From the human T2T-CHM13v2.0 reference genome, Homo sapiens: DNA of 64,000 bases. Of this stretch, positions 27,588 through 55,257 are shown piece by piece (within the stretch, counting starts at the first letter, position 1; every line of letters begins with the position of its first letter). The position numbers were made by a program, and so were the translations under genes. Location: the NCBI RefSeq assembly GCF_009914755.1, contig NC_060936.1; one strand, given 5' to 3'. The notes below the pieces were generated by a model. It was not told the DNA's origin, did no database searches, and saw nothing but the letters and a program-made list of their open reading frames with translations.

Positions 27588-27589
27588 TA

Positions 27590-30908: not shown

Positions 30909-31150
30909 TTGTCTGCAGAAATACTAGAATCCTTTAGGACAGATAATTTTTGAAGTTTTTCTGCTCTGACAGTGAGGGAAGTCTCCTGAGACTCATTCAT
31001 GCTCTGCTCTCCAAGCATGAATTTTTCTCTTTACTTTTCTCTTTACTTTGAATGAATTTTTTCTCTTTACTTTGTTAAACGTTTACTAATATAAAATGGA
31101 GTCACACTGGTTCCTTTCTGTAAAGGGAGAGAAGATGGGCTTTCTGAGTT

Positions 31151-31178
31151 TATTATTATTATTATTATTATTATTATT
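31151..31178. repeat. (TTA)n microsatellite
   Basis: Directly visible. Confidence 0.9.
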
Positions 31179-32172: not shown

Positions 32173-32543
32173 ATCTCACCCACTTCTCAGTTTTGCTTGA
32201 GTTACGGACCTTGAAGTTAGTTATTTGCTATTTAGAAATTTTGATACTACACTGTCATTATTCATTTCAGATTTTTTTCAGAAATATTAAAGTCAATATT
32301 TCTGTGAAAATTGAAAAAAAATTTTATGATTAAATTTCTATTAATTTTGAATAAAATGCTACATTAAGGAATGAATGTTTTGATAGTTTATAAAACGCAA
32401 AATAATACTATAATAATTTAAGTGATATACAATAATAATTTAAGTAATATTCTTTAAGGTTTGATCTAAGGACACAAATATATGCATTAAATATTGAAAA
32501 AAAATAAGGATGACAGGATACTAGATCCATCATTTCATTCCTC

Positions 32544-32838
32544 TTTTTTTCTTTTTTGAGACAGGGTCTTTGTCACCCAGGCTGGAGTGCAGTGGAGCTA
32601 TCACAGCCCACTACAGCCTTGCCCTCCCTGGGATCAAGTGATCCTCCCAACTCAGTCGCCAGAGTAAGTTTGGACTACAGGTGTATGCCACCATGCCTGG
32701 CTAACTTTTGTATTTTTTGTAGAGACAAGTGTCTCACTATGTTGCCCAGGCTGATCTTGAACTCCTGTGCTCAAGCAGTCTGCCCACTTCAGCCTCCCAA
32801 AGTGCTGGGATTACACCTGTGAGCCACCGTGTCCAGTC
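32544..32838 (-). mobile_element. AluJ
   Basis: gagacagggtct..gatcctccca..ctcctgtgctcaagcagtctgccca; TSD ttcattcct(c/t)ttt. Confidence 0.92.
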
Positions 32839-33150
32839 TTCATTCCTTTTTTATATACATATATTATTATAGTCAATTCATCAGAATGAACTATAGTTCA
32901 TAGGAAAATATTTTGTATATAGTTTCTTGATAAACAATGCTTGTTATTATGCTAAACCTATTGCAAAATCTATAGTGGTTTTTCATATCATGTTGCTTTC
33001 ATGGTTTGCAAACCAAACACAAATGAACTATTAGAACCACTAATTATTTTGTCTGTTAGTGAAGATATTGGAATGGAAATTATTTTGAGTTTCAAAGGTA
33101 AATGATATACTCTGAAGACAATTATTATTTTTCTCATTTAAAATGTACAT

Positions 33151-33505
33151 TGATATGGTTTGGCTTTGTCCACACCAAAATCTCATCTTGAATTGTAACT
33201 CCCATAATTCCCACGTGTTGTGGGAGGAACCTGGTGGGAAGTGATTGAATCATGGGGGTGGGTCTTTCTCATGCTGTTCTCATGGTAGTGAGTGGGTCTC
33301 ACAAGATCTGATGGTTTCAAAAGTGGGAGTTTCCCTGCACAAGCCCTCTTGTCTGCTGCCATGTGAGATGTGCCTTCACCTTCCACCATGATTGTGAGGC
33401 CTCTCAGCCACGTGGAACTCTAAGTCCAATAAATCTCTTTTTTTTTTTTCTAAATTGCCTAGTCTTGGGTATGTCTTTATCACAGCATAAAAATTGACCA
33501 ATACA
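33151..33505 (+). mobile_element. THE1B/C solo LTR
   Basis: tgatatggtttggct..aataca termini; 5-bp TSD tacat/tacag. Confidence 0.93.
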
Positions 33506-33869
33506 TACAGGTTCCATTAGAATTATTCAAAGAATAAAGCAAAAATATTAACATAAAATGACTGAGTTACTGGAAAATGGGACTACTCATGGCAGAATCT
33601 GTTGTAACAAAAGACTTCTTTGTCAAAATTGTCATTTCATTTGGGATCTCTTTTTCAATTCTCAAGGCAAAAATAAGATAATTTATATGTATAGTTTAAT
33701 TTGCAGTCTAGGGAGACTTGGTATATAACTCTAGCCATAATGTTTATTTCAACTTCCATTTTTTTGACATAAGGCACTCAATCAGACAGATAATAGATTT
33801 TCATTTCCAAACCTAACATTTCTGGCAGTCCTGGGCAGCACTTTTTGGAGGGAAATCAATAAATCAAAT

Positions 33870-34870
33870 TTTAATCAGTATTTATTGAGCACCTGCTAAC
33901 ATAGATGCTATGGTAGGGAAAGGTTGTGGGTGAAGGAATGACAGAGGTTTATGAGATATTGTTGCTGATCTAAAGAAATTTTTATGCAGAATAGATGCAC
34001 ATAAGACACATGCACGCACACACACACATACCAACCCAAACACACCGTCACACACAAATAAATAAAAAGCTTATTATCGTTGAGCTTGGCCAGTTCATAA
34101 ATGGTTGGTCTGAGTGGAAAGACTAATGAGAACTACAGCATCCTTGGTTTGCAGATGTTTCCATCTTGTGTTATATAGAGTTAGCAAACAAGTATCTAAG
34201 AATAAAAGTGAGTGAATAGATGCAGTTCCTCCTTGAAGCATACCTGAATTTTGTGCTCTGTCTACCTGGAGGAGAGAGATGAGTGAGGATTCTGCCAGGA
34301 CAGATAAACATAAACCACTGTGTGTCTCACAACCTTTTATTCCCTGGAATAATCCTAACTAATATTTCTCTTGCTACCATAAAAGACAATTCTTTGTTGG
34401 GAGTCAGTTATGTAACTAGTGAGAAATCCCTAAGTAGTGACTTGGATCTGTTACAGAGAAAAAAAAAACAGAAGAAGCAGCTAGAGGATGATAAACACAG
34501 GGTATGGTATTCTGTGCTATGTTCAGGAAGCAGGCTGGAGCTGAGATAGATTGAATACTATGGGACTTACATAATACCTAATTGCAATAAGTTTTCATTG
34601 TATGACTCTAGGGAGAGGAGAAGTATGGCTTACCCTTTAAAAGATCATTCTAAGCAATTTTATAGAGAGTAGACTACAGGGAGGTCAGTTGGGAGGCCTG
34701 GACTACAGTAGTAGTGGAAATATGGGGCAAAGTGGTTGGATTTGGGATATTCTGAAGCTAGACTCTAAACATCTTGCTAATAGATTGGATATCAATGGAG
34801 AGAAGAAGGATAATCAGTAATCTCTGTTTTGTGCTTGATCAACTGAGCGAATGTTAGTTTCATTCTCTGA
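33870..34870 (-). mobile_element. L2 fragments (~33870-34010 and ~34540-34870)
   Basis: tatttattgagcacctgct; aaagatcattct..cttgctaatagattggat. Confidence 0.6.
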
Positions 34871-35462
34871 AATGATCCCCAAAGAGACAGAGGAAGAGGT
34901 AAAATGTTTTGTATAAAATGTTAAGGTTATATTTTGCATTTTACATTTCCAAAATAGAATTAATTTGGCTAAAAATGATCATGTTCAATGGAGTGAGTCA
35001 GACCAACTTGCATAATTCTAAGATAATTTGAATACTCATCTGTTATTTTTCTTTTGGCTGGAGGTTATTGTTGGTGGTGGTAGTTTGACAGAAAAAATGC
35101 AGATTTTTTGGCCAACTATGAGAAGGAAAAACTTGACACAGAAAAAATCTGGTTTATTGAGTGATTTCTAGAAATGGAAGGTATTTCTATTTTCCTAAAA
35201 TGTGAATTTATATTTGTTTTTTGTCCACCACTGAATGAGATTGGATAGTCTTTGAGAGGAAATGATAAAAAACTATTTTTACTTTTATGGGGCCCCTTTC
35301 TTGAAGTTACCTCGGAAGTCATCTACTGTGAATCTTGATTTTATAGTAGGAGAAAATTGAGCTATTATAAATACCAAATGAATTTTAAAAAGATCTTACA
35401 TATTTAATCAGTCAGCACAGACCTTGAGCTTAAGAGATTTCGGTAGGGTTTTTCCGTTGCTT

Positions 35463-35466
<4 letters not shown>

Positions 35467-35509
<43 letters not shown>
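35467..35509. repeat. (TG)n microsatellite
   Basis: About 21 units. Confidence 0.97.
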
Positions 35510-35513
<4 letters not shown>

Positions 35514-35814
35514 CCTATCATGATACAGAAAATCACAATCATTATTTACAAAATTAAAAACTTTTAGTGTATAGTTATGTCAAGTGTAACAAATCAATAT
35601 CAAGTATCAAAATCATTAAATGAATTTGTGTGGACTCAAATAAAGGCTTCCACAATATAAATGAAATGCTCTGCTTACCCTGCCTTGAGTATTTCTAACT
35701 ATATAGTTGTCTTGAGAGGGCTTAGCGAAATGCCTCTGATATTCAAATGGCCTTTGAAATACTGATTATACTGTTTACAATAATAGTTTGTATTGCATGT
35801 ACTAAGCATTTTTT

Positions 35815-36109
35815 CTTTCTTTTTTTTTTTTTTTTTTTTTTGAGATGGAGTCTGGCTGTCACCCAGGCTGGAGTGTAGTGGCGCTATCTTGGCTCACTGC
35901 AACCTCAGCCTCTTGGGTTCAAGCAATTCTCCTGCCTCAGCCTCCTGAGTAGCTGAGATTACAGGTGCACACCACCACGCCCAGATAATTTGTGTAGAGA
36001 TGGGGTTTCACCATATTGGTCAGGCTGGTCTCGAACTCCTGACCTTGTGATCCACCCACCTCGGCCTCCCAAAATGCCGGGATTACAGTCGTGAACCACC
36101 GTGTCCAGC
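35815..36109 (-). mobile_element. AluS (Sg-like) with shortened linker, inserted in a MIR (~35780-36320)
   Basis: TSD tgtactaagcattttt on both sides; MIR core tattattaccccatttt follows. Confidence 0.93.
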
Positions 36110-37329
36110 TGTACTAAGCATTTTTATAGTCATTTTCTTGTTGCATATTTACAGCAACCTTATGAATCTGGTACTATTATTACCCCATTTTAAAAAATGC
36201 GTAAACTTAGGTTGAGAGGAAACATAATTGCCTCAAACCATAAGAAGGTAAGCAGCCCATCCAGGACTTAAACCCCAGTCAGGCTGACACCAACCCCATG
36301 CTGCTGTCTACTCTCCTCTGCAATTTTAGTAGTTAGTAACCCAATAAAAGTATCACAATCATGTGACTAAATTCTTACAGAAAGTGGAACATATTATAAT
36401 GAAGACAGAGAGGCATTAGGTAAGAAACAGAAAATGCCTAAGTAAAAATTCTAAAAAGTGCTATAAGATATACAAATTATTTTAACCTTTTTACACACAA
36501 ATTGCAAGAATTATCATTAGTATATATTCCTGAAAATTTTAGCAATTTGATTTCCTGTCATATTATACATTATATGTAATGAAATATGGTGTATTATAAA
36601 ATGTATAAGACATAAGCTTAACTCATGCCTCAAAGGATAGTTATAATCCTCCTTATTGAACACAACTTTGACAGAGCTTTCTTGGGTTAAGCTTTTGATT
36701 ATAACACATGTATTTTAAAACATAATATAGATTCTCCATATTGGTTTGATTGCTAAAATATTTTTTAAACCAAAACATGTAAAATTTGAGCAATTTTTCT
36801 TTGCTTCTTCCAAATGTTCCTGTTAAAGTTTTAGTGTGTTAGGCCAAAGGATATTTATAATGATATGAAAAGCCTTAACATATGTTTTTGCAGTCCATGA
36901 TATTCGCCCAAGGATCTTCCTTTTAGAATACAATACAATTTTAAGATGTACCAATATGTTTTAAAGGCCATATCTGTGAAAACCCAAAACATAATTCAAT
37001 TCTAAATTTCTCCACTCTTTCATCCTCTACATTTTTTTTTGTCAGTTTATTACTCTGTAGACTAAAAATCTGTAATGGTTCCTCATTGCCCCCAAACTAA
37101 ATATGTAACAATAGCTATCAACTATTGGAATATCTGCTGTGTACTGGGCCCTTTAGTACATTACCTCTCATCCTTCCAATCACCTGCTACATATAGAGAC
37201 AGGAAAACTGGAGCACAGGGAGCTGACCTTGAAACCCATGTCTATTTGATTTGAAAATCTTGTATTCTTTCCACTAGAAATGATGGTACCTCCTATTTAG
37301 TAAATGCCTACCATGTTCTAGGCACTATA

Positions 37330-37550
37330 CTCAGGAGTTTGGGTTCAAATCCCAGCTCTACCATTCCCAACCCATGTATTCTTGGGATCATTACTTAAAC
37401 TTTCTTTGCCTCAGTTTTCCTATCTATAAAATTAGGTAAATAATAATAATAAGAGTACCTTATAGGGTTATTGGGAGGATAAAATGAATAATCTATATAA
37501 AGAATTTAGTATACAACCTAGTAAATACAAATACGTATTAGTTATCATTA
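37330..37550 (+). mobile_element. MIR (an oppositely oriented MIR piece lies at ~37100-37270)
   Basis: gggttcaaatcccagctctacca..gcctcagttttcctatctataaaat. Confidence 0.85.
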
Positions 37551-38035
37551 TTTTTATTAGGAAATACTTCAGATATACAAAAACCTATAATGATAATAAA
37601 TATCAAAGTCACAACGAAATTTAAAGGATAGAACATTATAAACACAATTGGAGCACATGTTATTTTGTAGCTCAGTATTTATCCTTCTTGTGCATGCTTT
37701 TGTTCTTTCATTATAGATGTGTATATTATTTTACAGATGTCTAAATTATAAAGCAATATATAGAAACATTTTCAAATTTTTTAATGGATGAGACCAACTG
37801 CATTTTTTCTGTAACCTGCTTTTTATGATAAATATGACGCTTGCAAAATCCATCATAATTGACAAATGAGGCTCTAGTTCATTTATTTTCACTGCTATGC
37901 ACTATTTATGAATGAAACTGCAGTGAAACTAGAATAAGTCTATTGTAGGAATGAAACTACAGTTCATTCATCCACGCTATTATTGATGTATATTTAGGTG
38001 TGTTTTAAAACTTATACTATTTCATAAACTGCTAT
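37550..38035 (-). mobile_element. L1ME-like fragment
   Basis: ctagttcatttattttcactgct..ttcatcca..tattgatgtatatttaggt. Confidence 0.6.
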
Positions 38036-38439
38036 AGCATAATAAATGATGATAAAAATAATATAAAACACTTTCTAATGCTTACTTCTCAGGCAATGAT
38101 TTACATATGTTGAATCATTTAATCTCATAAAATCTCATAGGAAGAACTATTATTATCTACAATGTACAGATGAAGAAAGTGGGTCAACTTGACACATCTG
38201 GTACATGGTGTTCCTGGAAATAAAAATAAGGTAATCAGGCCAAGATGTAGCTGTCTTGACCACATGTGCCTTTGGGCACACGTATATACAAGAGTGCTCT
38301 AGGACTAGTTCTCCATCTTGTCTGCACATTAGGATCATCTGGACACTTAAATATAATGACTCATGCCTAAACCTCTTTCCAGATAAATTGACTCAAAATA
38401 GCTGGGGATCAAGTCTAGACATAAATATTGTTTAATCTG

Positions 38440-39155
38440 ATTTTTAATTAAACTTCTTGTTCTGAGATAATTGTAAATTTGCATGTTGTTGTAATACTAT
38501 TTACCATTTACCCAGTTTGCCCCAGGGATACCATCTTGCAAAACCATAGTAAAACATCACATCCAGGATTGACATTAATACAGTCAAGATCCTGAACATT
38601 TCTGTCACCACAATGATCCCTCCTGTTGCCCATTTGTATCCACACCCATTTCCCTCCTGCTCATCCCCTCCTTAACCCCTCACAATCAGTAATTGGTTCC
38701 ATATTTCTGTAATTTTGTCATTTCAGGAATGTTATAACATTCTATATAAATGGAAAGTCAATTCCAAAAGGTTGCATACTATATAATGGAATTCCATTAT
38801 ATAGGATTATATTATAGGATTCTATTACACAGTGTGGGATCCCATTATATAGGATTTCATTATATATACCCTTTTGGGATTGACCTTTTTTAATCTATCA
38901 AAATTCTCTGCAGATTCATCTAGGTTGTTGCATGTATAAATATTTCACTTCTTTTATAGCTTATAGTAGATCATGGTATGTAAGTACCACAGTTGGTTTA
39001 AACATTCACCTGTTGAAGGATATCTGGATTGTTTTCAGGTTTTTTTGGCTATTAAATATAAGCTTCTATGAATATTTATTTACAAGTTTTTGTTTGAATG
39101 TATGTTTGCATTTCTCTGGAATAAACACCAAGGAATGCAATTACTAGGCCATATC
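38440..39155 (-). mobile_element. L1MC-like 3' fragment with a rearranged palindromic insert
   Basis: gagataattgtaaatt..catccaggattgacattaatacagtcaagat..aacattcacctgttgaaggata. Confidence 0.82.
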
Positions 39156-40575
39156 ACATCCTGACTTATTCTTGTCTTTTAAGTAAATTGTGTTAACTGG
39201 CCAACACCTCTCTCTTTGATCACACTTAAAGGTCAAAAAGTCAGTGTCTATCTCAAGGTAACATTATTTTTTATCTCCAATAATGATTTTACCACCAATA
39301 TTTTTAATTTTGATATGAATATTATTTCTAAGAAATTGGAGATCACAAAATAGCTACAGGTTAAATATTGCTGACATCATTTAGTAAAAGCCAAAAAAAA
39401 AAAAACCCAGAAAACAGTTTAAGGTTTTCTAATCTACAGAGCACCCTACAAGGAAATTAATATCTGTATGCAACCATCTCACTAGCTTTGTTTACCAGAC
39501 ACGGCATGTGAGAAAGAAAACACTTCAAGTGTTTAAACATTTCTAAAATCAAATTCAAAAAAGCATACTTTTCTAATGAGATGTTCATTGACTTGAAACC
39601 AAAGTAACAAGAATGCTTTGAAGAAAATATACCCAACAATTTGTATAGTAAAGTGAATATAGTGTTCCATTTAAACCTCATAGAACCCCATGAAAAAATT
39701 AACCAAGTAAGATTGGATGATATCCACATCCTAGAGGCATGTTTCTTATTTATTGGAAATTTGACTAAACCATCAATATGACCACCTTTATTCTCAGATA
39801 TTTTTAGGATACTAGAGCCAATGAATATAATGTTCTATTAAGGAGAATATGTTTAAATAATCACAGAAATTAAATATCTTATTCCATTATTATTTAAAAA
39901 GTTGTATGTGTCTATTTTTATACCAAAACATTTCCTATTAAACATATATGTATATATAATAACTTTTCTTATTAGCTTTGTTTTTTCCTACCTTCTGCAA
40001 CCAGAAATTTCTCTGCTTCCTTGAGACAGAAACATAATTGTGTATCTGTTGGACAAATACTATTTTCCTTTTTTAACAAAACTTTTTGATAGAAGAGCTT
40101 TATGTTGGCATCATTTTAATGAATTCAATACATTCATTAAAGAAGTGGTAAGCCTAATAATATATTTGCTTCTGTGCATTATTTTTCTCTAAATTTTGGG
40201 CTACTTGTCTTTGTATACTGTTTCAAAACCTAGGCACTCAAGTGTGTCATTTTCCATTGCAATTAATCACTTGGTTTTGAGCTGCTCTAAGAACTGAATT
40301 TCGCCAAAATAATTGTGAGTATGAACTTTCCTGTTTGTGAGCTTCTTGAACAAGTTGGCATATTTTCCCTTCGACAACTGTCACCATCTGACAATTTGCT
40401 ATTATAGCTAGACTAACATTAAGATTTAAGTATCTAACTCTGGGCTCAGTGAAGGTCAGGCATATTTAGACAGTTTTCCACAGAAAAGTTTGAAGTTAAT
40501 ACCCTGAGTTTCCTTGAATTGCATTTAATAACTTCCAGGTTAAAACCCCAAATGGTAGAATCAAATAAACAGACT

Positions 40576-42001
40576 CATGGCATAGGTCCTGAGAGATGAG
40601 CAACTGGAGAAAGAGGTTCAGATGAGATTATTTCCTCTGAAAGTACTAGTTCCTATTGTCATGGAGGAAAGAAGATCTAGATGAATATTCATATAACCCA
40701 GTTTTCTGCATTGCACATTACAGAAAGTCTACAGAGAACTCTCTGGGAGAGTGAGTCAGAAACCAAAATCAATCTGGGACAATATATCATTTATTTTCAT
40801 ACTGGAATGACTTTCAAATCGTCTACTTTTATTGTTGTTAATGACACAAGTTTCTCCTATGTAACAGTCTCTGAATCAAACTAAGAAAAGGCATAAATAT
40901 ACTGATGAGGTTTATATAACCCATGTCTAAATAATCAGAACAAATCACTAATGGCATTTAAAATATTCCAAAATGCTTGTTACTTCAACTTGTTCTCTCT
41001 ATACCATTTCATATGCCTGTTTTTCTGATACTTACTTCTTTTGTTGCCTTATCCAATCACAATCAGGATTAAAGCTTGGGAAATTGAGAAGTGACCCAAA
41101 TTTATTATAGGCAATTATTTTTCCACTTCTGCCTATCTGTCCCTGTAAACTTTCCCCTCATCATCTGATGCCTAATATATTGAAGTCCCCATCCTGCTAT
41201 CTTCACCTCTTCCTTCCCCACCAAAGAAACAGTTTTTTCCTTTTTTTTTTTTTTTTTTTTTTTTTAGATAGAGTTTTGCTCTTGTTGCCCAGGCTGGAGT
41301 GCAATGGCACGATCTTGGCTCATAGCAACCTCTACTTCCTGGGTTGAAGCGATTCTCCTGCCTCAGCCTCCCGAGTAGCTGGGATTACAGGCATGCACCA
41401 CCAAGCCCGGCTAATGTTGTATTTTTAGTAGAGACAAAGTTTCTCCATGTTTGTCAGGCTGGTCTCGAACTCCTGACCTCAGGTGATCGCCGGCCTCAGC
41501 CTCCCAAAGTGGTGGGATTACAGGCGTGAGCCACTGCACCCAGCCAAGAAACAATTAAAAAAAAAAAAAAAGAACCCTGTTCTCTGATCATTCACAGTAA
41601 GTTATAAATAGCTCATAAAATTACTAAACATATACAAAAACAAATCACATTTTACAAAGAGGGCAAAATGGTCTAGACTTAACATATAGAAAGCAAGTCA
41701 ATTTTTTCTCCAACTACAAATGACTGATATGTTCAATTAGTTTTACCATTTTTAAAAAAATCGGAGTCCATTATCCAGAACTCACATGAGGAAAAGTTTA
41801 GACAAAAATGGTAAACCCAAATCACCTACGCAAGATCTTTATGAATGGGTGTGATAGTCCATTATGTGTAATGTTACTGAACTAGTAGCTGCAAAACTTT
41901 TGTCTATTTTCCATTTTCTGATCCCTCTTAGGAAGTAATAACACATTTTTGTAATTCAATAGCTATCGCCATGATTCCCGAAATAGGGGCCTACTAGAGT
42001 A
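40576..42001 (+). repeat. Left arm of ~1.09 kb inverted repeat (contains AluSp)
   Basis: Reverse-complement match to 44822-45908 along its whole length outside the Alu. Confidence 0.97.
41235..41545 (-). mobile_element. AluSp-like
   Basis: gagttttgctcttgttgccc..gcaatgg; tttctccatgtttgtcagg; TSD aagaaaca(g/a)tt. Confidence 0.93.
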
Positions 42002-43871
42002 TTTTACATTTTTCGAGTGACACCCAACTTCTTTATCTTTCAGATCTCAATATTTTGTTTTATGAAAGAATCAAAGTAAGAAACCTAAGATATGAAAAAA
42101 CACTTATTTCCAAAGGAAGAGATCATCCTAGTTGTTCGAAGGCTTACATGCTTAATGCACTTTCTATTTGTTAATGAGACTTGTTCACATTATATAGCTT
42201 TCAATTAGTTGTTTTGAATTAATTTTTCATAGTCCATATAAAATTATAATATTACAAAAATAAAATCAACACGACTGAGGAGTCTGAAGGGCAGCGAGGT
42301 CACATATCCCAGCCTTGGTTTATTCAGAGATTGATTAACAGGCTGTGCCTTGGAGTTGGCTCATGTGCAAGAACTAAATCAATGTCATGGTTTTTCATGT
42401 TGAAATTTTAAGGCACCATGATGACTTTAATTATATATATTAAATTTATCAAATATTATAAACAGCACACTTTACTGTTTCTTTATAGAACATTGGTTGG
42501 CAGCTCTTTTCGAAAACCAGTCACCCATCAGAATTTTATTTACTACTTCTCCAAAGGATTTTCCAATATTCTTCCTACAGTTAAGTAAAGGCCATTTCTC
42601 TGGCATGTGTTTTCTAAAGTCCCTTAGCTTACTCAAATATTCTAAGAAAACAACAAAGATCCTGCTTCTCTAAGCAATACCAGACATAAAATTCCCCAAA
42701 GAGAAATAAATTGAGCATTTTATGCTGAACCAAGAATGTTCTCCTTCTCTCTCCTTTTTTATATGTTATGCAAAATGAGCCAAATGATGGGGATTAGGAA
42801 TGAGAAAAAGAAAATTAAGAAAGGAGTGAGACAAAAATCAAGGGTCTAGTATTATATCACCTAAAAATAAGATATGTGTCAGGCAGCAAGGAGGGAGATT
42901 ACAGAAACTAACTGAAGGCTGAAATAAAAATATGCATAGATTTGTTCTTGATTTCCTATGTATAGGAGGAAATTATGGTCCTCTGTGAGAAGACAGGTTA
43001 CGAAGTTCACAGAGACACGTAAATTCTTTGTTACAATCAATCCTACTTGTATTATGACTTTTGCCTTTTGTGAAACTTTATGTCCTTGTTTTTTTTCTCT
43101 GTTGGGCATTTAGAAATTTGTATCAAGATAAAGAAAAAATAGGTAACTCATTAAAAGCAAGAAATTCGTAGTGATTATTGCATGCTACATGAAAATAAAC
43201 AGCATTGTCTTATCAAACAAGCTGAATAAAGATTGTGAAAAATGTCTGTAGTAATACCTTTGCTCCAAGAATTTTAGTGCTAACTGCTGCAAGGAATACA
43301 AAATGGTGTAATACAGAGTGTACTCTCAAGGAACAAATTTATTTGAGGTGACGCAAAGTCATAAATAATGTAAATATTATATAATAAAAAGTAAAAAGCA
43401 GATTAGCAATAAGGAAAAGGCAGATTATATAGTGGATACATACTATGAGTGTATTCATTTATTCAACAACTATTTCCTGATTGTCAGTAAACCTAAAATC
43501 AGCTAGATTTTAGAGATCCAAAGATTATTGTGAATTGGACAATTTAGGAAATCTGAGTAAGAGGATTTCCTTTTAGTAAGTTTTTATGTACGTTTGAAGG
43601 GGATGTAGGAGAATATTCTTTCCTAAGTGGATGTAAATACGTTTGCTGAGTAAATGGTTATAAAGAAAATAATAAAGTCATCAAGTTTTCAGGATATAAT
43701 GATAAATACCTTTGTCTGTAATGCCAAGTACAAATACATTTCTGCTTAAATGATATAGAAGTGAGAATGCTAGAAAGGAGAGATTTTAATCATTATTCAA
43801 AATATTTGCTATTGGTGCTATGTGCAAAAAGAAACTTTACTCTTAAGCAAGTAGATGATGTAGTAAAAGAT

Positions 43872-44467
43872 TGTGCGTCACTTAGTACTCCTTTGACAAT
43901 AAGTGTCAGAGAACCCAGCTAAAGCTGACCAAGAAAAGAACAGGTTTGTATTGATACATACGACTGAAAAGTTCAGAAGTAAATATGGCTGTACGAATAC
44001 TCTGGAACACAGATGATTTAATCAGGAACTTGTTTTTATCCTTCTCTTGACTCTATTTTCTTCTCAGGCTCCATGACACTTTTTTTTTCAGTTTTAGGCT
44101 TATATCCTCAAAGCATTCAGTCCGGTAGAAAAGAGAGGGAAACTTTGGTTTGCTTCTGAGTAAAGTTACTGTGTTCTATGCTTGGAACTTCTAAGGTCAG
44201 AAGCTTATCTCTTAGCCAATCACTGGGGCTAAAACGATGGAATTACACAGATTTACCCGTAGTAGACTACAAACCTATCTTTCACCTCCTGTGAATAGAA
44301 GAATTCAGTAATTTAGTGTTATAACTGGATAAGCATAGAATCTATGTGCTCCCACATACATCCACATAGAATGAGAATGGAGGAAGTTTATTTCCCAGAG
44401 AATAATTGTTGTACTGGAAACAAGTGCAATGCAGAAGTTTTGTAAACCCACCCAAATATTTACTCCA
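43872..44467. mobile_element. Old MLT1 (J/K-like) LTR
   Basis: aagtgtcagagaacccagctaaagctg..gactgaaaagttcagaagt..ccaatcactggggct. Confidence 0.6.
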
Positions 44468-44709
44468 GGGTGTTGTATAATAGCACTATGCTGAAAGGGT
44501 TGGATGAAAGAACACTTGGAGAGAGAATGACCACGTACTATGGCTATAAATTGTGTGAATTTGAGCTATATACATAAACTGGAATGGAAAGGGTGATATT
44601 CATGTGCAAAATTTTTTGAAGAATGACCTGGTAGAGCTTGGTGATTGTCTATTAGCTTATCCAATAGTAGATGTTTTCATAGTTACACATATTAGGGCTA
44701 TACTATGGC

Positions 44710-44815
44710 CAGAGGTTCCTAAACTTTTGCAAGTTACAGCACTCTTAATTTTTCGGTTATTTTTGCATGGCACCCCTTCACCAAAATAAATAATTAAGAA
44801 ATACATTTAATAAAT
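44710..44815. mobile_element. One end of a hAT-Charlie-like element
   Basis: cagaggttcctaaactttt..cagcactctt..catggcacccct; no partner terminus found. Confidence 0.45.
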
Positions 44816-44821
44816 ATTGAC

Positions 44822-45908
44822 TACTCCAGTAGGCCCCTATTTTGGGTATCACAGCTATAGCTATTGACTTACAAAAATGTGTTATTACTTCCTAAGAAGG
44901 ATCAGAAAATGGAAAATAGATAAGGGCTTTGCAGCTATTAGTTCAGTAACATTACATATAAAAGACTACCACACCCATTCATGCAGATCTCGAGTAGGTG
45001 ATTTGGGTTTACCGTTTTGTCTAAATTTTTCCTCATGTGAGTTCTGGATAATGGACTCTGATTTAAAAAATGATAAAACTGATTTCACATATCAGTCATG
45101 TGTAGTTGGAGAAGAAATTGACTTGCTTTCTATATGTTAATTCTAGACCATTTTGCCCTCTTTGTAAAATGTGATTTGTTTTTGTATATGTTTAGTGATT
45201 TAATATGCTATTTATAATTTACTGTGAGTGATCAGAGAACAGCGTTTTTAAAAAATTGGTTTCTTTGGTGGGGAAGGAAGAGATGAAGATAGGAGGATGG
45301 GGGCTTTAATAGGCATCAGATGTTGAGGGGAAGGAGTACAGGGACTGATAGGCAGAAGTAGAAAAAGAATTTTCTGTAATAAATTTGGGTCACTTCTCAG
45401 TTTCCCAAGCATTAATCTTGATTATGATTGGATAAGGCAACAAAAGAAGTATCAGGAAAATAGGTAGGCATATGGAATGATATAGAGAGAACAAGTTGAA
45501 CTAACAAGCATTTTGGAATACTTTAAATGCCATTAGTGATTTGTTCTGATTATTTAGACATGGGTTAAATATACCTCATCAGTATATTTATGCCTTTTCT
45601 TAGTTTGATTCAGAGACTGTTACATAGAAGAAACATGTGTCATTAACAAAAATAAAAGTAGATGATTTGAAAGTCATTCCAGTATGAAAATAAATGATAT
45701 ATTGTCCCAGATTGATTTTGGTTTCTGACTCACTCTCCCAGAGAGTTCTCTGTAAACTTTCTGTAACATGAAACACAGAAAACTGAGTTATATGAATATT
45801 TATCTAGATAATCTTTCCTCTAAGACAATAGGAACTAGTACTTTCAGAGGAAATAATCTCATCTGGACCTCTTTCTCCTGTTGCCCATCTCTCAGGATCT
45901 ATGCCATG
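44822..45908 (-). repeat. Right arm of ~1.09 kb inverted repeat (Alu-free)
   Basis: Reverse-complement match to 40576-42001; empty Alu site tttttaaaaaattggtttctt near 45245-45265. Confidence 0.97.
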
Positions 45909-46319
45909 CCTAATCATATGATAGAGCTGAAAATAGTAGTCCATCTTCACTAAGCCCACCTGGTGTACCTTCTAAGCTTAACATGAGTATCAATATTCAT
46001 GCATACATAGTCTCCTATTGTAATGCTTTGAATTTAACATATTTCATATTTAGTATAAGTAAAATAGTTTATAATAGCAAAGACCTTTTAAAATTATTTT
46101 TTTTCTTACTTGCTTTGCACATATGAAGCTTTGATTTTTACATTTTAGCTTCTTTGTGGTTTTATTATCTGAACTGTACATTTGACTCATTTGAGCAAAT
46201 CTCCTTACAAGCTAGAATATTTAAGATGCATCTGATCGTCTTTCAGTAATTATTCCAGAATATTTATTCATCACTGACTCTATGTCTTGCACAATATATA
46301 TGCTTTTAATTAGGCCATG

Positions 46320-46460
46320 TGTTACAATCACCTGAAGATTTCCTCAAGCCTAAATTTTAATCAAGCCTGACTCCAAACAGAATAACTAGAGTTTTGAACC
46401 AGGGGAGGGGTATGTTTTTAGATTCCCAGGTGATCCTAATTTGCATTCATGGTTGAGAAT
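46320..46460. mobile_element. MER5-like hAT MITE (another at ~38305-38430)
   Basis: aatcacctgaag..ttcccaggtgatcctaatttgcattcatggttgagaa. Confidence 0.6.
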
Positions 46461-47599
46461 GATCTAATTCAAGCAATGCTTTTTTAAGTTAAATGTATTC
46501 TTCAGCTATTTGTTGACTATTTCTGGTATTGAGAAAAATGAGGATGATATAGTCATGGTGTCTGTTCTTTTTCAGTCCACATTCTTGACAATTAAAAATA
46601 TTATGAAAGTCATACAACTGTGACAGAGAAATGCAAATGTATTTCTCCAAACTTAAAGCACAAGCGTCATAATATTTCAAAGGAAACAAGAAAATTCTAG
46701 TGATTTTTGAATTGATACTCCTTTTCTCCCTTTCCAGCTGCCTGCTACCTAGTTCACATGGTTTAGTCACAGGATAAGAGAAAAGTTTTCAAGCATTTTC
46801 TACAGATGTGAATGTTTGATATAAAAAAAAGACACTCTGGTTTAAAGAATGTTGCTAGGAAACACAGTTTGAAGATGAACTCCCCTACAGAGCTGTCTTC
46901 CATCCTGTAATAAGAAAGTGTGGTGGTAGCATGTCCTCATTTAAAAGCAAAAAAATAATCTATTAACTGTGTATCCAGAGGGAACTTGTTACAGGCTTAT
47001 TTAAAACTTATTTGGAAATAGTTTTGGTTTATTATATGCACCACAACTTCCAGGAATTCTTTTGTTTTTTAATTGGTGCAAGGATAAAGTTGTAAGCATA
47101 TAATATTTTGTCCAAATAATCACTATAAGAGAAATGCGCTTAAATACAATAATGAACTCATGTTAATTTTTGCTTTAATAGTAATTTCTATTAAAGTAAT
47201 ATATCCTTTATCATAGGAAAATGTGGATATACAAAAAATATGCTAAGATAATAAGGACTGCCCATAATGCCACCTAAGAGAAATAATCATGCTTTGGTGT
47301 TATTTATGTTTTATTTCTTCTAAATACTCAAGGCATGTTGGCTAATTGTTGTTATAGGTTTGTTCTGACACACTGCCATTTAGCAAGTAAAATAGTTTAA
47401 TCCACTTATATTTATTATAATTTCTTATGTACCTTGATGTATTTCTAAAATCTTATTTTATGTTCTTTTAATTACCCATTTTTTTCTTTTTCCTTATTTT
47501 CTGCCTTCTATTTGATTAGTTTATGTACCATGTATTATTGAGGTCATAATATCTAATATTTAGCCCTGCATTTTCATATAATCCAGTATAAGCTTTTCC

Positions 47600-49640
47600 T
47601 GATTCTGATTATTATAAAGCACTTGAAAGTGTAATTTTAAGGCTTCCCTAATATTTTTATCATATTGCTCTATTATATGTAAACACATCAAATTATTTAA
47701 TCAGAATAGATTTCTCTATGAGGAATCACTGTATCAAAGTATCTGAATACTTTTAAGATACTTGATGCATATTACTAAATTATTTCCTGAAAATGTTGTC
47801 TTAGTTACTACTTCTTGTAGCAGTATAGGAAAATATTAATCATTGCATCCACATAAACATCGAGTATTGTTAATTTTAATGCTGTGCAAATTTTATCAAA
47901 TAAAATATATATACAGCATTAAGTTGCATTTTTTATTCATATGTCATACATGTATGTTCATTCATGTAAGTTTAGCATGTTCTTTATTCATTAGTCTATT
48001 AGTATTATAATAGTCTTTCATATATTAACTGCTGTGAGTTCCTTATAGCTATGTCTGTAATCTTTTTGAAGTTTTTTCCCAATTTACATTTTGCCCTTAA
48101 AATTCATTCATAACTTTTATATATACAACTTAAATTTTTTCCTTTGTATTTTCTTATATTCAGGGAGTTGGTGTATTTATTTCCTTTTTAAGTTTCTGTA
48201 AGTTAATTTGATTTTTATATTTTGACTTTTAATTCATCTGAGTTTTTGTTGATATATGAAGTGAGATTAGAATGCTTATTGATTTTTTTCTAGCTATTTA
48301 GTTGCCTCAGTGCCCTTTATTGAGTCGTATTTCATATCTTTACCTGTTAGCACTTTCACAAATAGAGGATGCAAGCAATATAAATGTAAGCCTGGTTTAA
48401 ATCTTAATTCCACCACTTACTAGTACCAGAAACACCACAATCCTGGGCAAATTGCTTAACCTACATGACTCAGGTGTTTCATCCCTAAAATGGACACAAA
48501 GAAGAACCTATATGAAGGTTTTTGTGAGGGGTGAGATAATACATGTAAGGTGTCTGGCACACAATAAATGCTCAGAAAATGTTAGTTCTTATAGAATCTG
48601 TTTGTTCTGTAAAGAACACCATTTTTTATGAAGTTTTTATTATGATTTTCAATTGGTGGGATTATAGTTATTTTATTAGCCTTGAGAAACAATTTGGTAG
48701 AGTACTTAAGCACATGGACTCTAGAGCTAAACTGCTTGGTTGTGAATCCCAACATGCCTACTAGTTAACTGTGTGACCTTAGCTACTTCACATCTTTGTG
48801 TCTCAATTTCTCTATCTGTAAAATTGAGATATTCATAGCATTTACCATAGAGATTTTCTGTGAGAACTCCAATGAGAATTAAATGTATTTACAGTGGTTA
48901 GTAGTAAGTGCTATGTATGCATTAGCTATAATTTGTTCCAAAATAGTCTTAATGTCCTTTTCAAACATTTTTCTTCTCTAATAAATTTGAGACTTATTCT
49001 TTCAAGTTTAGAGAAATCCCATTTGTGCTTTGATTGAAAGTATGTCATTTTGGAAAACTTTAAGAATATTGAGTCTTGTTATCAGGAGCTGGTATAGTTT
49101 TCCAATTTGTCAATGCTTCTTTTAAGTCTATCAATAAATATTTATAGCTTTTCATTTCTTGTACTGATTATTAAAAGTATTTCTAGGTCATCAATCGTGT
49201 GTTTGTTAATACTGCAGGCTGAGGCTTCACCTTTCTTATTTCTAAGTAGACATTGTTAGTACAAAAGAAAACTATAGTTTAGTTTATATTTATCTTCTGC
49301 TTAGTCACTTTGCTGAACTCTTAATGTTCATATTTTATTTAAATCAATTTTCTTTGATATCCTGGTCTATAATCATACCGTATGCAAAATAATAGTTCTG
49401 CATCCTCTTTTTTGATTGTTGTAAATACAATTTTTGCTTCATTTTGAACTATATTTGCCTAAGCTCCAAAACAGTGCTAAATTCTGTGTTTCCAGTATGG
49501 TAGAAGACACTGGGATAAAAAACAGACCAGACAGCGATGGGCCCTGTCTTCACAGTGTTTTAAATCTATTCCCATGGACTTAACATAATATTGATCTATC
49601 AAATCCTGTGTGTTGGTTTGCATTATTTAGGGGAGATGTT
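47600..49640 (-). mobile_element. Highly degraded L1M fragments with two MIRs (+) at ~48380-48590 and ~48690-48930
   Basis: L1-like ttgatgcatattactaaatt, atattgagtctt, cactttgctgaactc; MIR cores ctcaggtgtttcatccctaaaatgg and tctcaatttctctatctgtaaaat. Confidence 0.6.
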
Positions 49641-49641
49641 A

Positions 49642-51211
<1,570 letters not shown>

Positions 51212-51929
51212 ACAATGAGAACACGTGGACACAGGAAGGGGAACATCACACTCTGGGGACTGTTGTGGGGTGGGGGGAGGGAGGAGGGATAGCATTAGGA
51301 GATATACCTAATGCTAAATGACGAGTTAATGGGTGCAGTACACCAACATGGCACATGTATACATATGTAACAAACCTGCACATTGTGCACATGTACCCTG
51401 AAACTTAAAGTATAATAATAATAATAAAGAGTCTTTTATCCTAATTTATAGTGATAAATCAGTCTTATTAATAACCCGATTAATTTTTGTGATGATTTAT
51501 ATGTTCTTATTCACTGTTACGGACTTTTTAAAATTTCAAAATAACTGTGATAGTGTTACCCATTTCCTTATACGTGTACAGTATATATATTTCTAATTAC
51601 CCATATTCTCAAAAAACAATAACTAATTTTTCATAGAGAAATGTTAAAATATGTCGAAAATAAAAAGACTTTAGGTACATTAATTTACATTTTTAAGAGA
51701 CTTATTTTGAGTTTTCAAAAGTAGTACTGGAAACATAATTCAGTCTGTAATCATGGCTTGGTCACCTATGGTTTCTGTAAACATAAATATAAATACAGAT
51801 ATGGTTTACAATCTTAACTTGTTTTAGACTCCCGATTACAACGTAAAGAAATGTGATTAACAACAACAACAAAAAAAGGAAGTATATAGAATTTGGTTTT
51901 CTTTTGCCAGGAATTAATCTTTTTGTGGA

Positions 51930-52420
51930 CTGCAGAAATACTGGGGAAAGATAGCTGATTGGTAGGAAAGACAGCAAGGTGTTTACTGGGCCTGATAGAG
52001 AGACTACGGGCCCATTTTATCAGTTTAATAAACAGAGTTAAGAGTCTAACAAGCTGGGTGGCTTTCCACAAACAAAACAAGTTTGAGAGTTGCAGCAAAA
52101 GGAAGAGATCCTTTCCCCTGATTTAGCATCTAGGAGACAACCATTCAAAGGAGGGATACTCATGTAAAGAACACAGCCTTGCTTCCCCTCCTGCCACTCG
52201 GTTCACTCCACAGCGTCTTGCCAGTGGGCGTTCAGGCCTGTGCCAGGGATGCGCTCCATGGAGCCAGTCAGCAGAAATCTCTTGAAAGTATTTTGACTGA
52301 AGCTGTAAAAAGTTGAACCATTTGAAAATTCCTTCCCAGGTTATTCTCTGTAAGGGTTAAACCTGCTGCCTTGGGAAATTCACTTCCTATCTGTATACCT
52401 GTATTTATAGTGGGAGGGAG
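51930..52420. promoter_or_regulatory. Candidate enhancer or alternative promoter
   Basis: Non-repeat, locally GC-richer with several retained CpGs; motifs tgtttac and acaaaca (FOX-like), gattgg (CCAAT), gggaaattcac (NF-kB-like). Confidence 0.3.
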
Positions 52421-53429
52421 ATTCTTTAATAGGTTGGTGAGAAGTAGCTGGGCCTATAATTAAAATCACTGCTCTTTATTAACTAGATTTTAGCCATAAT
52501 GTTGAGTGGAAAAAACAAAGATGGGGGATGTGATAAGTGATTAGAAAGAAAACAAAACAAAATTGTTAAGAGTCAAATATAGTGGTCCAGTTTGAATGGA
52601 ATTGAAGGAAAGAAAAGGGGCAATTGGAATGTCATTGCTTCTCTTTTCAGTCTCTTCAATTTATCCCTTTACATATTCTGTACAAATACTAAGCAATTTT
52701 TTTAGATAAGTGGCATAGTTATAACTCTCAAAACAATTTGCTAATTTATACGTTCAGGAATTTAAAAACTGTTTACTAAGCATTTCCCATGTGATAGGTG
52801 TTGTGGTAGGTTCTCGGGTTTTTGAAGCCCCAAATCAATGGGAGAGTCAGACACTGAGAATTATTTAATCATAAAATGTAATACTCATCCTTAAAGAAGG
52901 GCAGAAATGGTATAAATCTCAATGTATTATTATGAGTATTAAAAAAAGATAATTCACATAAAGAACTGGCAGTGATCGTGGCAGTTTACCTATCATATGT
53001 ACTCCAGTGATGAGAAGAATCATGAAGACGAGCATTATGCTGAGGATGAAGATGTTAGGGGACAGGTACTGCCATTTATTATCATTGGCAAGCTGCTTGA
53101 CTTCTCTAAACCTCATTTCTCGATGTGTTAGTTGGAGTCAATAATAGTTACCTACACGTAATTTTGAAGATTAAAGGTATTTGTGAACCACCGGTATTTG
53201 AAACAGTGGGTGTTCTATAATTGAGTTATTTCCTTTACTAGACTCCTATCCATGCGATATTAATCTCTAATACTATATGGATATTATCAATAAAAAAGAA
53301 ATACAGATACATGAGTGGTATATTCTGAGAATAACATTAGATATGGACTATCTCTAAGGTCATTTTTAAACAGAGCGAATATCACCTTTCCTGTGACTCC
53401 CCACTGTACTTTATTTCTCCTTATAATTT

Positions 53430-55257
53430 TGTTATTTTTTAATAGACTTTAAGAGTTTTAGGTTTACAGCAAAGTTGAGCAGAAATAACAGCGAGTTCTC
53501 ATATACCCCTTGTCTCCTCACACATAGCCTCCCCCACTGTCAACATCCCGCACCAAAGTGGTACAGTTGTTAAAATCGATGAACCCGCACTGATACATTA
53601 TTATCAACTGAAGTCCTTAGTTTACATTAGGGTTACTCTTGCTGTTGTACATCCTATGGATTTGCATGAATTTATAATGATAGTATCATACAGAATAGTT
53701 TCACTGCCCTAAAAATCTTCTGTGCCACTGCATTCCAGCTCTGTGATCTCCCTATTCATTTCTCCCTCCTTGCTAACCCCTAGGAAACACTGATTATTTT
53801 ACTGTCTCTGTGGTGTTGCCTTTTCCAGAATGTCATATAGTTGAAATCATACAGTATATAGTCTTTTCATATTGAATTCTTTCACTTAGTAATATGCATT
53901 TAAGTTTCCTTAATATATTCTCCTGGCTTGACAGCTCATTTCTTTTTAGTGCTAAATAATACTCCATGGCCTCGTTGTACCACAGGTTATTTATTGATTC
54001 CTCTACTAAAGGATGGGTTTCAATTTTTGGCAATTATTAACTAAGGTGCTATAAACATCCTTGTGCCAGTTTTTGTACTGACATACATTTTCAACTTCTT
54101 TGTGTAAATACTAAGGAGTGTGATTGCTGGATCATATGGTAAGAATATGTTTAACTCTGTTAGAAACTGCCAAACTGTCTTCCCAAGTGGCTGAACCATT
54201 TTGCATTTCTACCAGTAGTAAACGAGAGTTCCTGTTCTTCCACATCAAATGCTAGTGAGGATATGGAACAGCAGGAACCAACAACATTTGGTGTTAGATT
54301 TTTGCCATTTGAATTGGTATGTAGTGATATCTTTTTATCATTTTAATGTGCAATTTCCTGATGATATATGATGTTGAGCATCTCTTCATATATTGATTTG
54401 CCATTTGTTTATCTTCTTTGGTGAGATGTCTCTTCAGGAATTTTGACCGTTTTCTAGTTGAGTTGTTTGTATTCCTATTTTTAAGTTTTAAGAATTTTTG
54501 CATATTTTGGATAACACTCCTTTATCAGATGTTTTCACAAATATTTGTCCCTGCCTATGGCTTGTCTTCTCCTTCTCTTGACCGTGTCTTTTGCAGAGCA
54601 GGAATTTTAAATTTTAATGAAGTCCTGCTTTGCAATTCTGGTTTTCATGGATTCTGCCTTTATTGCTATATCAAAGAAGTTTGGATTCTGCCCCTATTGC
54701 TATACCAAAGAAGTTATTTCCATACCTACTTTCTCCTAGGTTACCTTGTAGGAGTTTTATAGTTTTGCATTTTAAATTTAGGTCCCTGACTCATTTTGAG
54801 TTAGTTTTTGTGAAGAGTGTAAGGTACGTAGCTAAATTTTTTTTGTTGTTGCGCATGGATGTCCAGTTATTTTAACACAATTTGTTGAAATGACTGTTTC
54901 TTAATTAAATTGCCTTTGTTTCTTTGTCAAAAGTCAGTTGATTATCTTTATATGATTCTATATTTGAACTCTCTATTCTGTTCCATTGATCTATGTATCT
55001 GTATTTTTCACCAGTACCACAGTATCTTGGTGACCATAGCTTTATAGTCTTTATGGCTTTAAGTCTTGAGGTTGGACAGTGTCCGTCCTCCAGCTTTGCT
55101 CTTTTTCTTCAATATTTTGTTGACTATTCTGCTTCTCTATGTAAACCTTAGAATCACTGTCAATGTAAACAAAATAACTTGCTGCAGCTTTGATTGGAAT
55201 TGTATTGAATCTGTAGATCAAGCTGGGCAGAACTGATATCTTGACAATTTTGAATTT
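53430..55257 (-). mobile_element. L1MB1-2/L1MC1-like 3' 1.8 kb
   Basis: ttttaggtttacagcaaagttgagcagaaa..aatcgatgaacc..cagaatagtttcactgccctaaaaatc; ORF2-like KRHLTKEDKQMANQYMKRCSTS. Confidence 0.9.

What the first reader, a model, noticed from the sequence alone, without database searches (positions are those of the whole stretch)
40576..45908. Old 1.09-kb inverted repeat of non-transposon-like sequence enclosing a 2.8-kb loop: candidate invertible cassette or giant RNA stem
Seen: arms 40576-42001 and 44822-45908 are collinear reverse complements. An AluSp with TSD sits in the left arm only, while the right arm keeps the empty TT/AAAA site. Faint homology continues outward (tgggct(c/t)agtgaag near 40441 and 45946). 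Inference: the duplication predates an AluS-era insertion yet persists. Inverted repeats of this kind are known to mediate recurrent NAHR inversions. If transcribed, the arms would form ~1 kb of dsRNA able to drive ADAR editing, endo-siRNA production, exon loop-out or back-splicing.
Basis: partly seen in the sequence, partly recalled or inferred. Interest (0 to 1): 0.8.

Follow-up and report, generated by a model that had tools for sequence, protein, structure and literature searches.

The report
Old inverted duplication in CNTN1 intron
Two 1.1-kb stretches inside an intron of the human CNTN1 gene are reverse-complement copies of each other, about 92% alike; the pair looks like an old, decaying local duplication with no sign of a special function.

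Summary
The inverted repeat is real. The arms are 40576-42001 (which carries a minus-strand Alu) and 44822-45908. They align over 1100 columns at 92.0% identity (90.5% counting gaps) around a 2820-bp loop.

In the whole T2T genome the right arm matches only itself and its partner. A young L1 used as a control gave 15214 first-look candidates. The arms are therefore a locus-specific inverted duplication, not two copies of a multicopy repeat.

The Alu has an 11-bp target-site duplication, and the right arm keeps the empty site. The duplication therefore predates a middle-aged Alu insertion.

The "faint outward homology" is at chance level. No exon, Rfam family or Pfam domain lies in the arms or loop (hub table).

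As RNA the arms could form about 1022 base pairs, so intronic ADAR editing is plausible but untested.

The longest perfect identity tract is 91 bp, so recombination between the arms (NAHR) should be inefficient today. The three inversion sources I could read list nothing here.

Verdict: an ordinary, probably neutral, borderline-size small segmental duplication. Low interest.

The parts
40576..41234 (+). Left arm, outer part, up to and including the first copy of the Alu target-site duplication (41224-41234)
   Evidence: Pairs with 45250-45908 at 90.9% over 668 columns. Alignment.
41235..41556 (-). Alu insertion, present in the left arm only. The poly-A tail is read as T25 at 41241-41265, the body is about 41266-41545, and the second target-site copy AAGAAACAATT is 41546-41556.
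   Evidence: Rfam Metazoa_SRP-type hits on the minus strand at 41264-41411 and 41429-41544. 368-deep pile-up of hits against a 263.5-kb genome sample. Junctions shown. Non-CpG divergence from a 114-copy Alu consensus is 13/226.
41557..42001 (+). Left arm, inner part
   Evidence: 41570-42001 pairs with 44822-45249 at 89.8% over 432 columns. Weak extension to 42011-42039 under laxer scoring.
42002..44821 (.). 2820-bp loop (spacer). It is single-copy apart from one old 106-bp repeat fragment and holds no annotated exon.
   Evidence: The whole-genome search finds only itself plus one 106-bp match at 73% identity. No Rfam hit. The 6 stop-to-stop frames scanned here have no Pfam match above cut-off. 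The hub's RefSeq table lists no exon here.
44711..44816 (+). Old interspersed-repeat fragment inside the loop, abutting the inner edge of the right arm. It is not part of the duplication.
   Evidence: 73% identical to chr1:179316543-179316648 on the minus strand. No partner terminus in the window.
44822..45908 (-). Right arm (1087 bp), the reverse complement of the left arm. It carries the unoccupied Alu target site at about 45250-45265.
   Evidence: The whole-genome search returns only this arm and the two left-arm blocks.

Best explanation
This is an old, locus-specific inverted duplication, a borderline-size small segmental duplication lying inside an intron of CNTN1.

Origin (inferred). 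About 1.09 kb of unique intronic DNA was copied once and re-inserted in reverse orientation 2.8 kb away. The likeliest route is a replication template switch or break repair, because both edges are sharp and there is no target-site duplication.

Dating (shown for order, inferred for age). The duplication happened before a middle-aged Alu landed in the left arm. That places it roughly in the catarrhine or anthropoid ancestor, tens of millions of years ago.

Decay (shown). The arms have since drifted apart by 8% in substitutions plus small indels.

Consequences today (inferred). They are passive. In CNTN1 pre-mRNA the arms can pair into a long imperfect duplex with the Alu bulged out. Such a duplex would be an ordinary nuclear ADAR substrate and would be discarded with the intron. 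Recombination between the arms that would flip the loop was possible when they were young. It should be rare now because identity tracts are short.
For: - Copy number. Exactly two copies exist in the 3.1-Gb T2T genome: 2 first-look candidates, both scored. The L1 control gave 15214 candidates.
- No repeat family. In 39501-47000, arms, loop and flanks have no hit against a 263.5-kb sample of the same genome, apart from the Alu and the one chr1 fragment I had fetched.
- Sharp edges. Flank alignments are at or below the shuffle means. No farther collinear homology exists.
- Order of events. The Alu has a target-site duplication in one arm and the other arm has the intact empty site.
- Comparable ages. 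Non-CpG divergence of the arms is 79/1066 = 7.4% pairwise, or 3.7% per lineage. The Alu differs from a 114-copy consensus at 13/226 = 5.8%. The difference is not significant (one-sided p=0.08).
- Nothing functional detected. No Rfam family outside the Alu. 12 of the 15 stop-to-stop frames of 60 aa or more were scanned against Pfam and none reached a curated cut-off. The hub table lists no exon and no RefSeq functional element.
- No selection for pairing. Transitions split 32 G:U against 23 A.C in the sense RNA (p=0.28).
- Duplex potential. Cofold gives dG -1742.6 kcal/mol, 1022 intermolecular pairs and a longest helix of 104 bp.
- Context. Barak et al. 2020 (PMC7006430, passages read) report that inverted duplicated sequences are not strongly depleted in pre-mRNA. 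They treat only pairs longer than 300 bp and above 96% identity as the special class (197 in human RefSeq transcripts).
Against: - Divergence along the arms is uneven. The 100-column windows range from 85% to 97% (chi-square p=0.03). The 91-bp perfect run is longer than permutation expects (mean 51, p=0.003). This could mean past gene conversion or local constraint rather than pure neutral decay.
- The Alu looks slightly older than the per-lineage divergence of the arms (5.8% against 3.7%, p=0.08). That is the wrong direction for a simple clock and hints at homogenisation between the arms.
- No other primate or human haplotype could be examined. Age, the parental arm and loop orientation are all inferred from one genome.
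- No expression, editing or conservation data were available, so a function is not excluded.
- The genome search is insensitive to very old repeats. Its first look found only one relative of the 106-bp repeat fragment. The arms may therefore contain undetected ancient repeat debris, although that would not change the local-duplication reading.
Confidence: 0.8

Rival explanations
1. The arms still mediate NAHR, so the 2.8-kb loop is an invertible cassette that is polymorphic or recurrently flipped in humans or other primates.
For: The architecture matches validated IR-mediated inversions, for example 1.6-kb and 2.8-kb IRs around inversions of 7.1 and 5.1 kb in Aguado et al. 2014, Table 1 (PMC3961182, section 6 read). 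The uneven divergence and the 91-bp perfect run could be traces of past exchange between the arms.
Against: Identity is only 92%, and the longest perfect tract is 91 bp (the next two are 55 bp). From memory, NAHR needs a few hundred bp of uninterrupted identity; the review by Gu et al. 2008, PMC2583991, was seen only in a search listing. Aguado et al. place refined breakpoints in regions of high identity and define highly identical IRs as 97% or more (passages). None of their 22 candidates is on chr12. There is no 'chr12' or 'CNTN1' in 12 of the 14 supplementary files of Giner-Delgado et al. 2019. In the supplements of PMC12229492, no number with the hg38 prefixes 40876-40878 or 40880-40882 belongs to a chr12 inversion. 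Of 17 CNTN1 mentions there, only 2 passages were shown, both for an unrelated 649-bp inversion at 40939781.
Confidence: 0.08
2. The arms are kept because the intronic dsRNA does something. Candidates are an ADAR-dependent or structure-dependent effect on CNTN1 splicing, an effect on use of the alternative terminal exon about 10 kb downstream, and a source of endo-siRNAs.
For: Both arms lie in one CNTN1 intron on the transcribed strand (hub table). The predicted duplex has 1022 pairs. The divergence of the arms is somewhat lower than the Alu clock suggests, and a 91-bp stretch is perfectly identical.
Against: There is no bias toward pairing-preserving G:U substitutions (32 against 23, p=0.28). 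There are 55 hard mismatches, 18 indel columns and a bulge of about 320 nt from the Alu. No Rfam family is hit. No exon lies in the loop. Intronic inverted pairs of this quality are common and not selected against (PMC7006430). No paper links CNTN1 with hyper-editing (0 papers) or with an inverted repeat at this locus (4 papers hold both words; the 3 listed have unrelated titles).
Confidence: 0.07
3. The arms are two independent insertions of an interspersed repeat that happen to face each other.
For: No Dfam or RepeatMasker annotation was available. The genome search is only a lower bound and is weak on old families.
Against: Only two copies exist genome-wide, against 15214 candidates for the L1 control. 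The arms have no hit in a 263.5-kb genome sample. Both arms stop at the same two ends, which independent insertions would rarely do. There are no TE protein domains.
Confidence: 0.02
4. The whole 5.3-kb unit is a DNA transposon with 1.1-kb terminal inverted repeats.
For: The shape is arms-loop-arms with sharp outer ends.
Against: There is no target-site duplication: the outer flanks read ...AACAGACT and CCTAATCA.... No other copy of arm or loop exists in the genome. No transposase-like frame was found.
Confidence: 0.02
5. The repeat is an assembly artefact.
For: None.
Against: The arms differ at 87 substitutions and several indels, and only one carries an Alu. A mis-join would not give these features.
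Confidence: 0.01

Closest known systems
Small inverted segmental duplications / inverted low-copy repeats of the human genome
   Same: Unique (non-TE) sequence present twice on one chromosome in opposite orientation. Length (1087-1100 bp) and identity (90.5-92.0%) just reach the conventional thresholds of 1 kb and 90% (thresholds recalled).
   Different: It sits at the very bottom of the size and identity range. It is old and interrupted by an Alu. Whether SD tracks list it could not be checked.
IR-flanked polymorphic inversions (e.g. HsInv0278 and HsInv0347 in Aguado et al. 2014, PMC3961182)
   Same: Inverted repeats of 1.6-2.8 kb bracket a few kb of unique DNA (Table 1).
   Different: In those inversions the exchange occurs in regions of high identity between the IRs. 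Here identity is 92% with at most 91 bp uninterrupted. No inversion is recorded here in the sources read.
Inverted duplicated sequences in pre-mRNA and inverted Alu pairs as ADAR substrates (Barak et al. 2020, PMC7006430)
   Same: Two reverse-complementary stretches lie in one intron and are predicted to form long imperfect dsRNA.
   Different: The arms are not transposon copies. The duplex is about 1 kb, longer than an Alu pair, but falls below the class of over 96% identity singled out as potentially immunogenic. Editing was not examined.
Inverted insertional duplications made by replication template switching (FoSTeS/MMBIR-type events; recalled)
   Same: A nearby segment is copied in reverse orientation with sharp junctions and no target-site duplication.
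   Different: The junction microhomology that defines those events cannot be read after about 8% divergence and without an outgroup. The mechanism is inferred, not shown.

Membership tests
Segmental duplication (low-copy repeat) | At least 1 kb aligned (threshold recalled) | tested here: met
   1087 bp (right arm) and 1100 alignment columns. Borderline.
Segmental duplication (low-copy repeat) | At least 90% identity (threshold recalled) | tested here: met
   92.0% without gaps and 90.5% over all columns. Borderline.
Segmental duplication (low-copy repeat) | Not a high-copy interspersed repeat | tested here: met
   2 copies in the genome, against 15214 first-look candidates for the L1 control. 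No hits in a 263.5-kb sample.
IR-mediated (NAHR) polymorphic inversion | Inverted repeats flank the segment | tested here: met
IR-mediated (NAHR) polymorphic inversion | Long tract of near-perfect identity between the repeats, where exchange occurs | tested here: not met
   Longest perfect run is 91 bp. The best 100-column window is 97% and the overall figure is 92%.
IR-mediated (NAHR) polymorphic inversion | Both orientations observed among haplotypes or species | not testable with these tools
   Only one human assembly is held. The catalogues read list nothing here.
DNA transposon with long terminal inverted repeats | Target-site duplication at the outer ends | tested here: not met
   The flanks ...AACAGACT and CCTAATCA... 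share no direct repeat.
DNA transposon with long terminal inverted repeats | Multiple copies, or a transposase remnant | tested here: not met
   Arm and loop are unique in the genome. No Pfam match above cut-off in 12 scanned frames.
Intramolecular dsRNA substrate of ADAR (IRAlu-like) | Both arms in one transcript, in opposite orientation | tested here: met
   Both lie in a CNTN1 intron (hub table). Orientation.
Intramolecular dsRNA substrate of ADAR (IRAlu-like) | Stable long duplex predicted | tested here: met
   dG -1742.6 kcal/mol, 1022 intermolecular pairs, helices up to 104 bp. This is a prediction for isolated arms, not for the whole intron.
Intramolecular dsRNA substrate of ADAR (IRAlu-like) | Clustered A-to-I editing observed | not testable with these tools
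   No RNA-seq or editing database is available. 0 papers hold both CNTN1 and hyper-editing.

The most novel reading that the evidence does not exclude
The arms have been kept partly alike by repeated exchange (gene conversion and loop flipping), and the 2.8-kb loop is still found in both orientations among humans or apes. Alternatively, the 1-kb intronic duplex tunes CNTN1 processing, for example the choice of the alternative terminal exon 10 kb downstream. The uneven divergence, the 91-bp perfect tract and the arms looking younger than the Alu they predate do not exclude this.
Probability: 0.07. Interest if true: 0.5.

Novelty: new member of a known kind. Interest (0 to 1): 0.15.

Why it matters
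It matters little. It adds one well-delimited example of an old non-transposon inverted duplication inside a neuronal gene's intron. The relative order of events is clear: duplication first, then Alu insertion. It could serve as a small test case for how fast inverted low-copy repeats lose the ability to recombine, and for whether kilobase-long imperfect intronic duplexes are edited. If the loop proved polymorphic in orientation, it would show NAHR or conversion working at unusually low identity.

Tried and rejected
- Outward and inward extension of the homology. Flank alignments are at or below the shuffle means, and no farther collinear inverted match exists in 25001-62000. Rejected.
- Multicopy-repeat origin. 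Genome search with the L1 control, plus a sensitive blastn against 263.5 kb of the same genome. Rejected.
- Using the old repeat fragment at 44711-44816 to decide which arm is the inserted copy. Only one relative was found. Its homology stops at the arm edge in both loci. No partner terminus lies in the window. Inconclusive; dropped.
- Structured-RNA families. Rfam at E up to 1 gave only Alu-derived hits below gathering score.
- Coding or TE-protein remnants. There are 15 stop-to-stop frames of 60 aa or more. 12 were scanned; the three overlapping the Alu were left out. No Pfam match reached its cut-off; the best was RNF180_C at 18.9 bits against a cut-off of 27.
- Clock comparison of the Alu and the arms. 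A first 12-copy consensus was too noisy. The 114-copy consensus gives 5.8% against 3.7% per lineage, p=0.08. Not decisive.
- Selection for pairing. The G:U against A.C split of transitions is not significant.
- Literature. No chr12 entry in Aguado 2014, Table 1. No chr12 or CNTN1 in 12 of 14 supplement files of Giner-Delgado 2019. Nothing at the estimated hg38 position in the PMC12229492 supplements. The Strand-seq recurrent-inversion paper was not among the 10 listed papers and was not seen.
Full report
**What is there**

The window is T2T-CHM13 chr12:40796001-40860000, inside CNTN1 (hub table).

The repeat finder on 39500-47000 returns six collinear inverted blocks that tile 40576-42011 against 44812-45908, at 87-94% complementarity. 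blastn joins them into two blocks:
- 40576-41238 with 45250-45908, 90.9% over 668 columns
- 41570-42001 with 44822-45249, 89.8% over 432 columns

With the intervening Alu left out, the arms align over 1100 columns: 995 matches, 87 mismatches (55 transitions, 32 transversions) and 18 gap columns. That is 92.0% identity without gaps and 90.5% with them. A separate global alignment of the whole arms gave a K2P distance of 0.088. The right arm is 1087 bp and the loop, 42002-44821, is 2820 bp.

**The Alu**

The 41229-41569 gap in the left arm holds an Alu on the minus strand.
- Rfam's 7SL-type model hits both monomers, 41264-41411 and 41429-41544, below gathering score as expected for Alu.
- The tail reads T25 at 41241-41265.
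- AAGAAACAGTT (41224-41234) and AAGAAACAATT (41546-41556) flank the insert and match at 10 of 11 positions.
- The right arm reads straight through ...AAGAAACCAATTTTTT/AAAAAC..., an unoccupied L1-endonuclease-type site.

The Alu therefore entered after the duplication.

I could not test the label 'AluSp'. Against a majority consensus of 114 near-full-length Alus, this copy differs at 13 of 226 non-CpG positions (5.8%) and at 16 of 45 CpG positions. The Alus came from the window and from 207 kb fetched elsewhere in the same genome. This copy ranks 40th of 114, where the median is 6.3%. It is a middle-aged Alu.

**Edges**

The 'faint homology' outside the arms is not above chance. The best local alignment of the 600-bp outer flanks scores 12 against a dinucleotide-shuffle mean of 14.4, and 193 of 200 shuffles reach it. 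The inner flanks score 13 against 14.5.

A laxer blastn stretches the inner block by about 38 AT-rich bases, to 42039 and 44783. It finds no other collinear inverted match between 25001-43411 and 43412-62000.

The duplicated unit is therefore a discrete segment of about 1.09 kb with sharp outer ends and an inner end fuzzy by 10-40 bp. The outer flanks (...AACAGACT | arm ... arm | CCTAATCA...) share no direct repeat.

**Not a repeat family**

- Searching the whole 3.1-Gb assembly with the right arm gives three places: itself and the two left-arm blocks, from 2 first-look candidates, both scored.
- The loop is unique apart from a 106-bp match at 73% identity (44711-44816 against chr1:179316543-179316648).
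- As a positive control, the masked stretch 49698-51434 gave 15214 first-look candidates, of which 40 were scored, with dozens of places at 94-97%.
- A sensitive blastn of 39501-47000 against 263.5 kb of the same genome gave 490 HSPs. All but one fell on the Alu (depth up to 368). The single exception was the chr1 fragment I had fetched because of its match.

The tool is weak on very old families; it found only one relative of the 106-bp fragment. Ancient repeat debris inside the arms cannot be excluded. But a family active at the time the arms diverged would have left many copies at 85-95% identity, and there are none.

**No gene-like content**

- There are 15 stop-to-stop frames of 60 aa or more in 40300-46200, the longest being 90 aa.
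- 12 of them were scanned against Pfam; the three overlapping the Alu were left out. None reached a curated cut-off.
- Rfam found nothing in the arms or loop.
- The hub's RefSeq table lists no exon or functional element here. The nearest exon is an alternative terminal exon at 56069-59342.

**Age**

Non-CpG differences between the arms are 79 of 1066 (7.4%), or 3.7% per lineage. The Alu must be younger than the duplication, yet it shows 5.8%. The difference is not significant (one-sided binomial p=0.08).

Taken together, the two figures place both events in the same broad era. With the recalled primate neutral rate of about 0.15% per million years, that is very roughly 25-40 million years ago. 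These are estimates from one genome, and the rate is from memory.

Divergence is uneven along the arms. The 100-column windows range from 85% to 97% (chi-square p=0.03). The longest perfect run is 91 bp (40730-40820 with 45664-45754), which exceeds the permutation mean of 51 (p=0.003). Together with the arms looking slightly too young, this hints at some past gene conversion, but the evidence is weak.

**How it most likely arose and what it does**

Origin is inferred. The evidence is sharp ends, no target-site duplication, unique sequence, and a copy placed 2.8 kb from its source in reverse orientation. These point to a single replication template switch or break-repair insertion rather than transposition. 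Which arm is the copy cannot be told without an outgroup. My attempt to use the adjoining old repeat fragment failed.

RNA. Both arms lie on the CNTN1 sense strand in one intron. ViennaRNA cofold of the two arms gives -1742.6 kcal/mol, against -319.1 and -258.1 for the arms folded alone. It predicts 1022 intermolecular pairs and helices up to 104 bp, with the Alu bulged out. This would be an ordinary nuclear ADAR substrate.

Barak et al. 2020 report that inverted duplicated sequences are only weakly depleted in pre-mRNA. They reserve special status for pairs longer than 300 bp and above 96% identity, of which there are 197 in human RefSeq transcripts (PMC7006430, passages read). This pair falls below that line. 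Transitions split 32 G:U against 23 A.C in the sense RNA (p=0.28), so there is no sign of selection to keep pairing. Back-splicing or exon loop-out has no annotated exon to act on.

DNA. The architecture resembles validated IR-mediated inversions, with IRs of 1.6-32 kb and inversions of 5.1-226 kb (Aguado et al. 2014, Table 1). In those cases the exchange maps to regions of high identity between the IRs. Here the longest uninterrupted identity is 91 bp. From memory, efficient homologous recombination in mammals needs a few hundred bp. The review that defines this was seen only in a search listing (PMC2583991).

**Catalogues**

- None of the 22 candidates in Aguado et al. is on chr12.
- 'chr12' and 'CNTN1' are absent from the 12 of 14 supplementary files of Giner-Delgado et al. 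2019 that were searched.
- In the supplements of PMC12229492, no number with the prefixes 40876, 40877, 40878, 40880, 40881 or 40882 belongs to a chr12 inversion. The only hits were an unrelated field value on chr11 rows.
- The two CNTN1 passages shown there (of 17 mentions) describe a 649-bp gnomAD-SV inversion at 40939781-40940430, which is elsewhere in the gene.
- Four papers hold both 'CNTN1' and 'inverted repeat'; the three listed have unrelated titles. No paper holds both 'CNTN1' and 'hyper-editing'.
- Pangenome and primate assemblies, editing databases and several catalogue supplements could not be consulted. Paper reading closed.

**Verdict**

The object is an old, locus-specific inverted duplication, a borderline small segmental duplication in a CNTN1 intron. 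It is most likely a neutral relic. Its only probable present-day activity is incidental intronic dsRNA formation. It is a new instance of a well-known kind, and interest is low.

Noticed in passing
window 49698-51434: A young L1-type repeat (15214 first-look candidates genome-wide). Query positions 2-862 and 863-1727 match adjacent parts of many other genomic copies at 94-97%, but in opposite relative orientation. This looks like a 5'-inverted (twin-priming-type) L1 insertion.
   Followed up: no
window 44711-44816: A 106-bp old interspersed-repeat fragment begins CAGAGGTTCC... and ends within a few bases of the inner edge of the right arm. It is 73% identical to chr1:179316543-179316648. No partner terminus lies in the window. 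The family is not identified.
   Followed up: partly
window 40730-40820 and 45664-45754; also 40776-40975 and 41602-41701: Divergence between the arms is uneven. There is a 91-bp perfect run (permutation p=0.003), and 100-column windows of 95-97% lie among windows of 85-88% (chi-square p=0.03). This may be an old gene-conversion tract or local constraint.
   Followed up: partly
window 41557-41571 versus 45250-45258: Just beyond the Alu's second target-site copy the left arm has A15, where the right arm (reverse complement) has TTTTAAAAA. This simple-sequence difference is not explained by the insertion itself.
   Followed up: no
window 59037-59320: A minus-strand Alu lies inside the annotated alternative terminal exon of CNTN1, 56069-59342 (blastn hit; exon from the hub table).
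   Followed up: no
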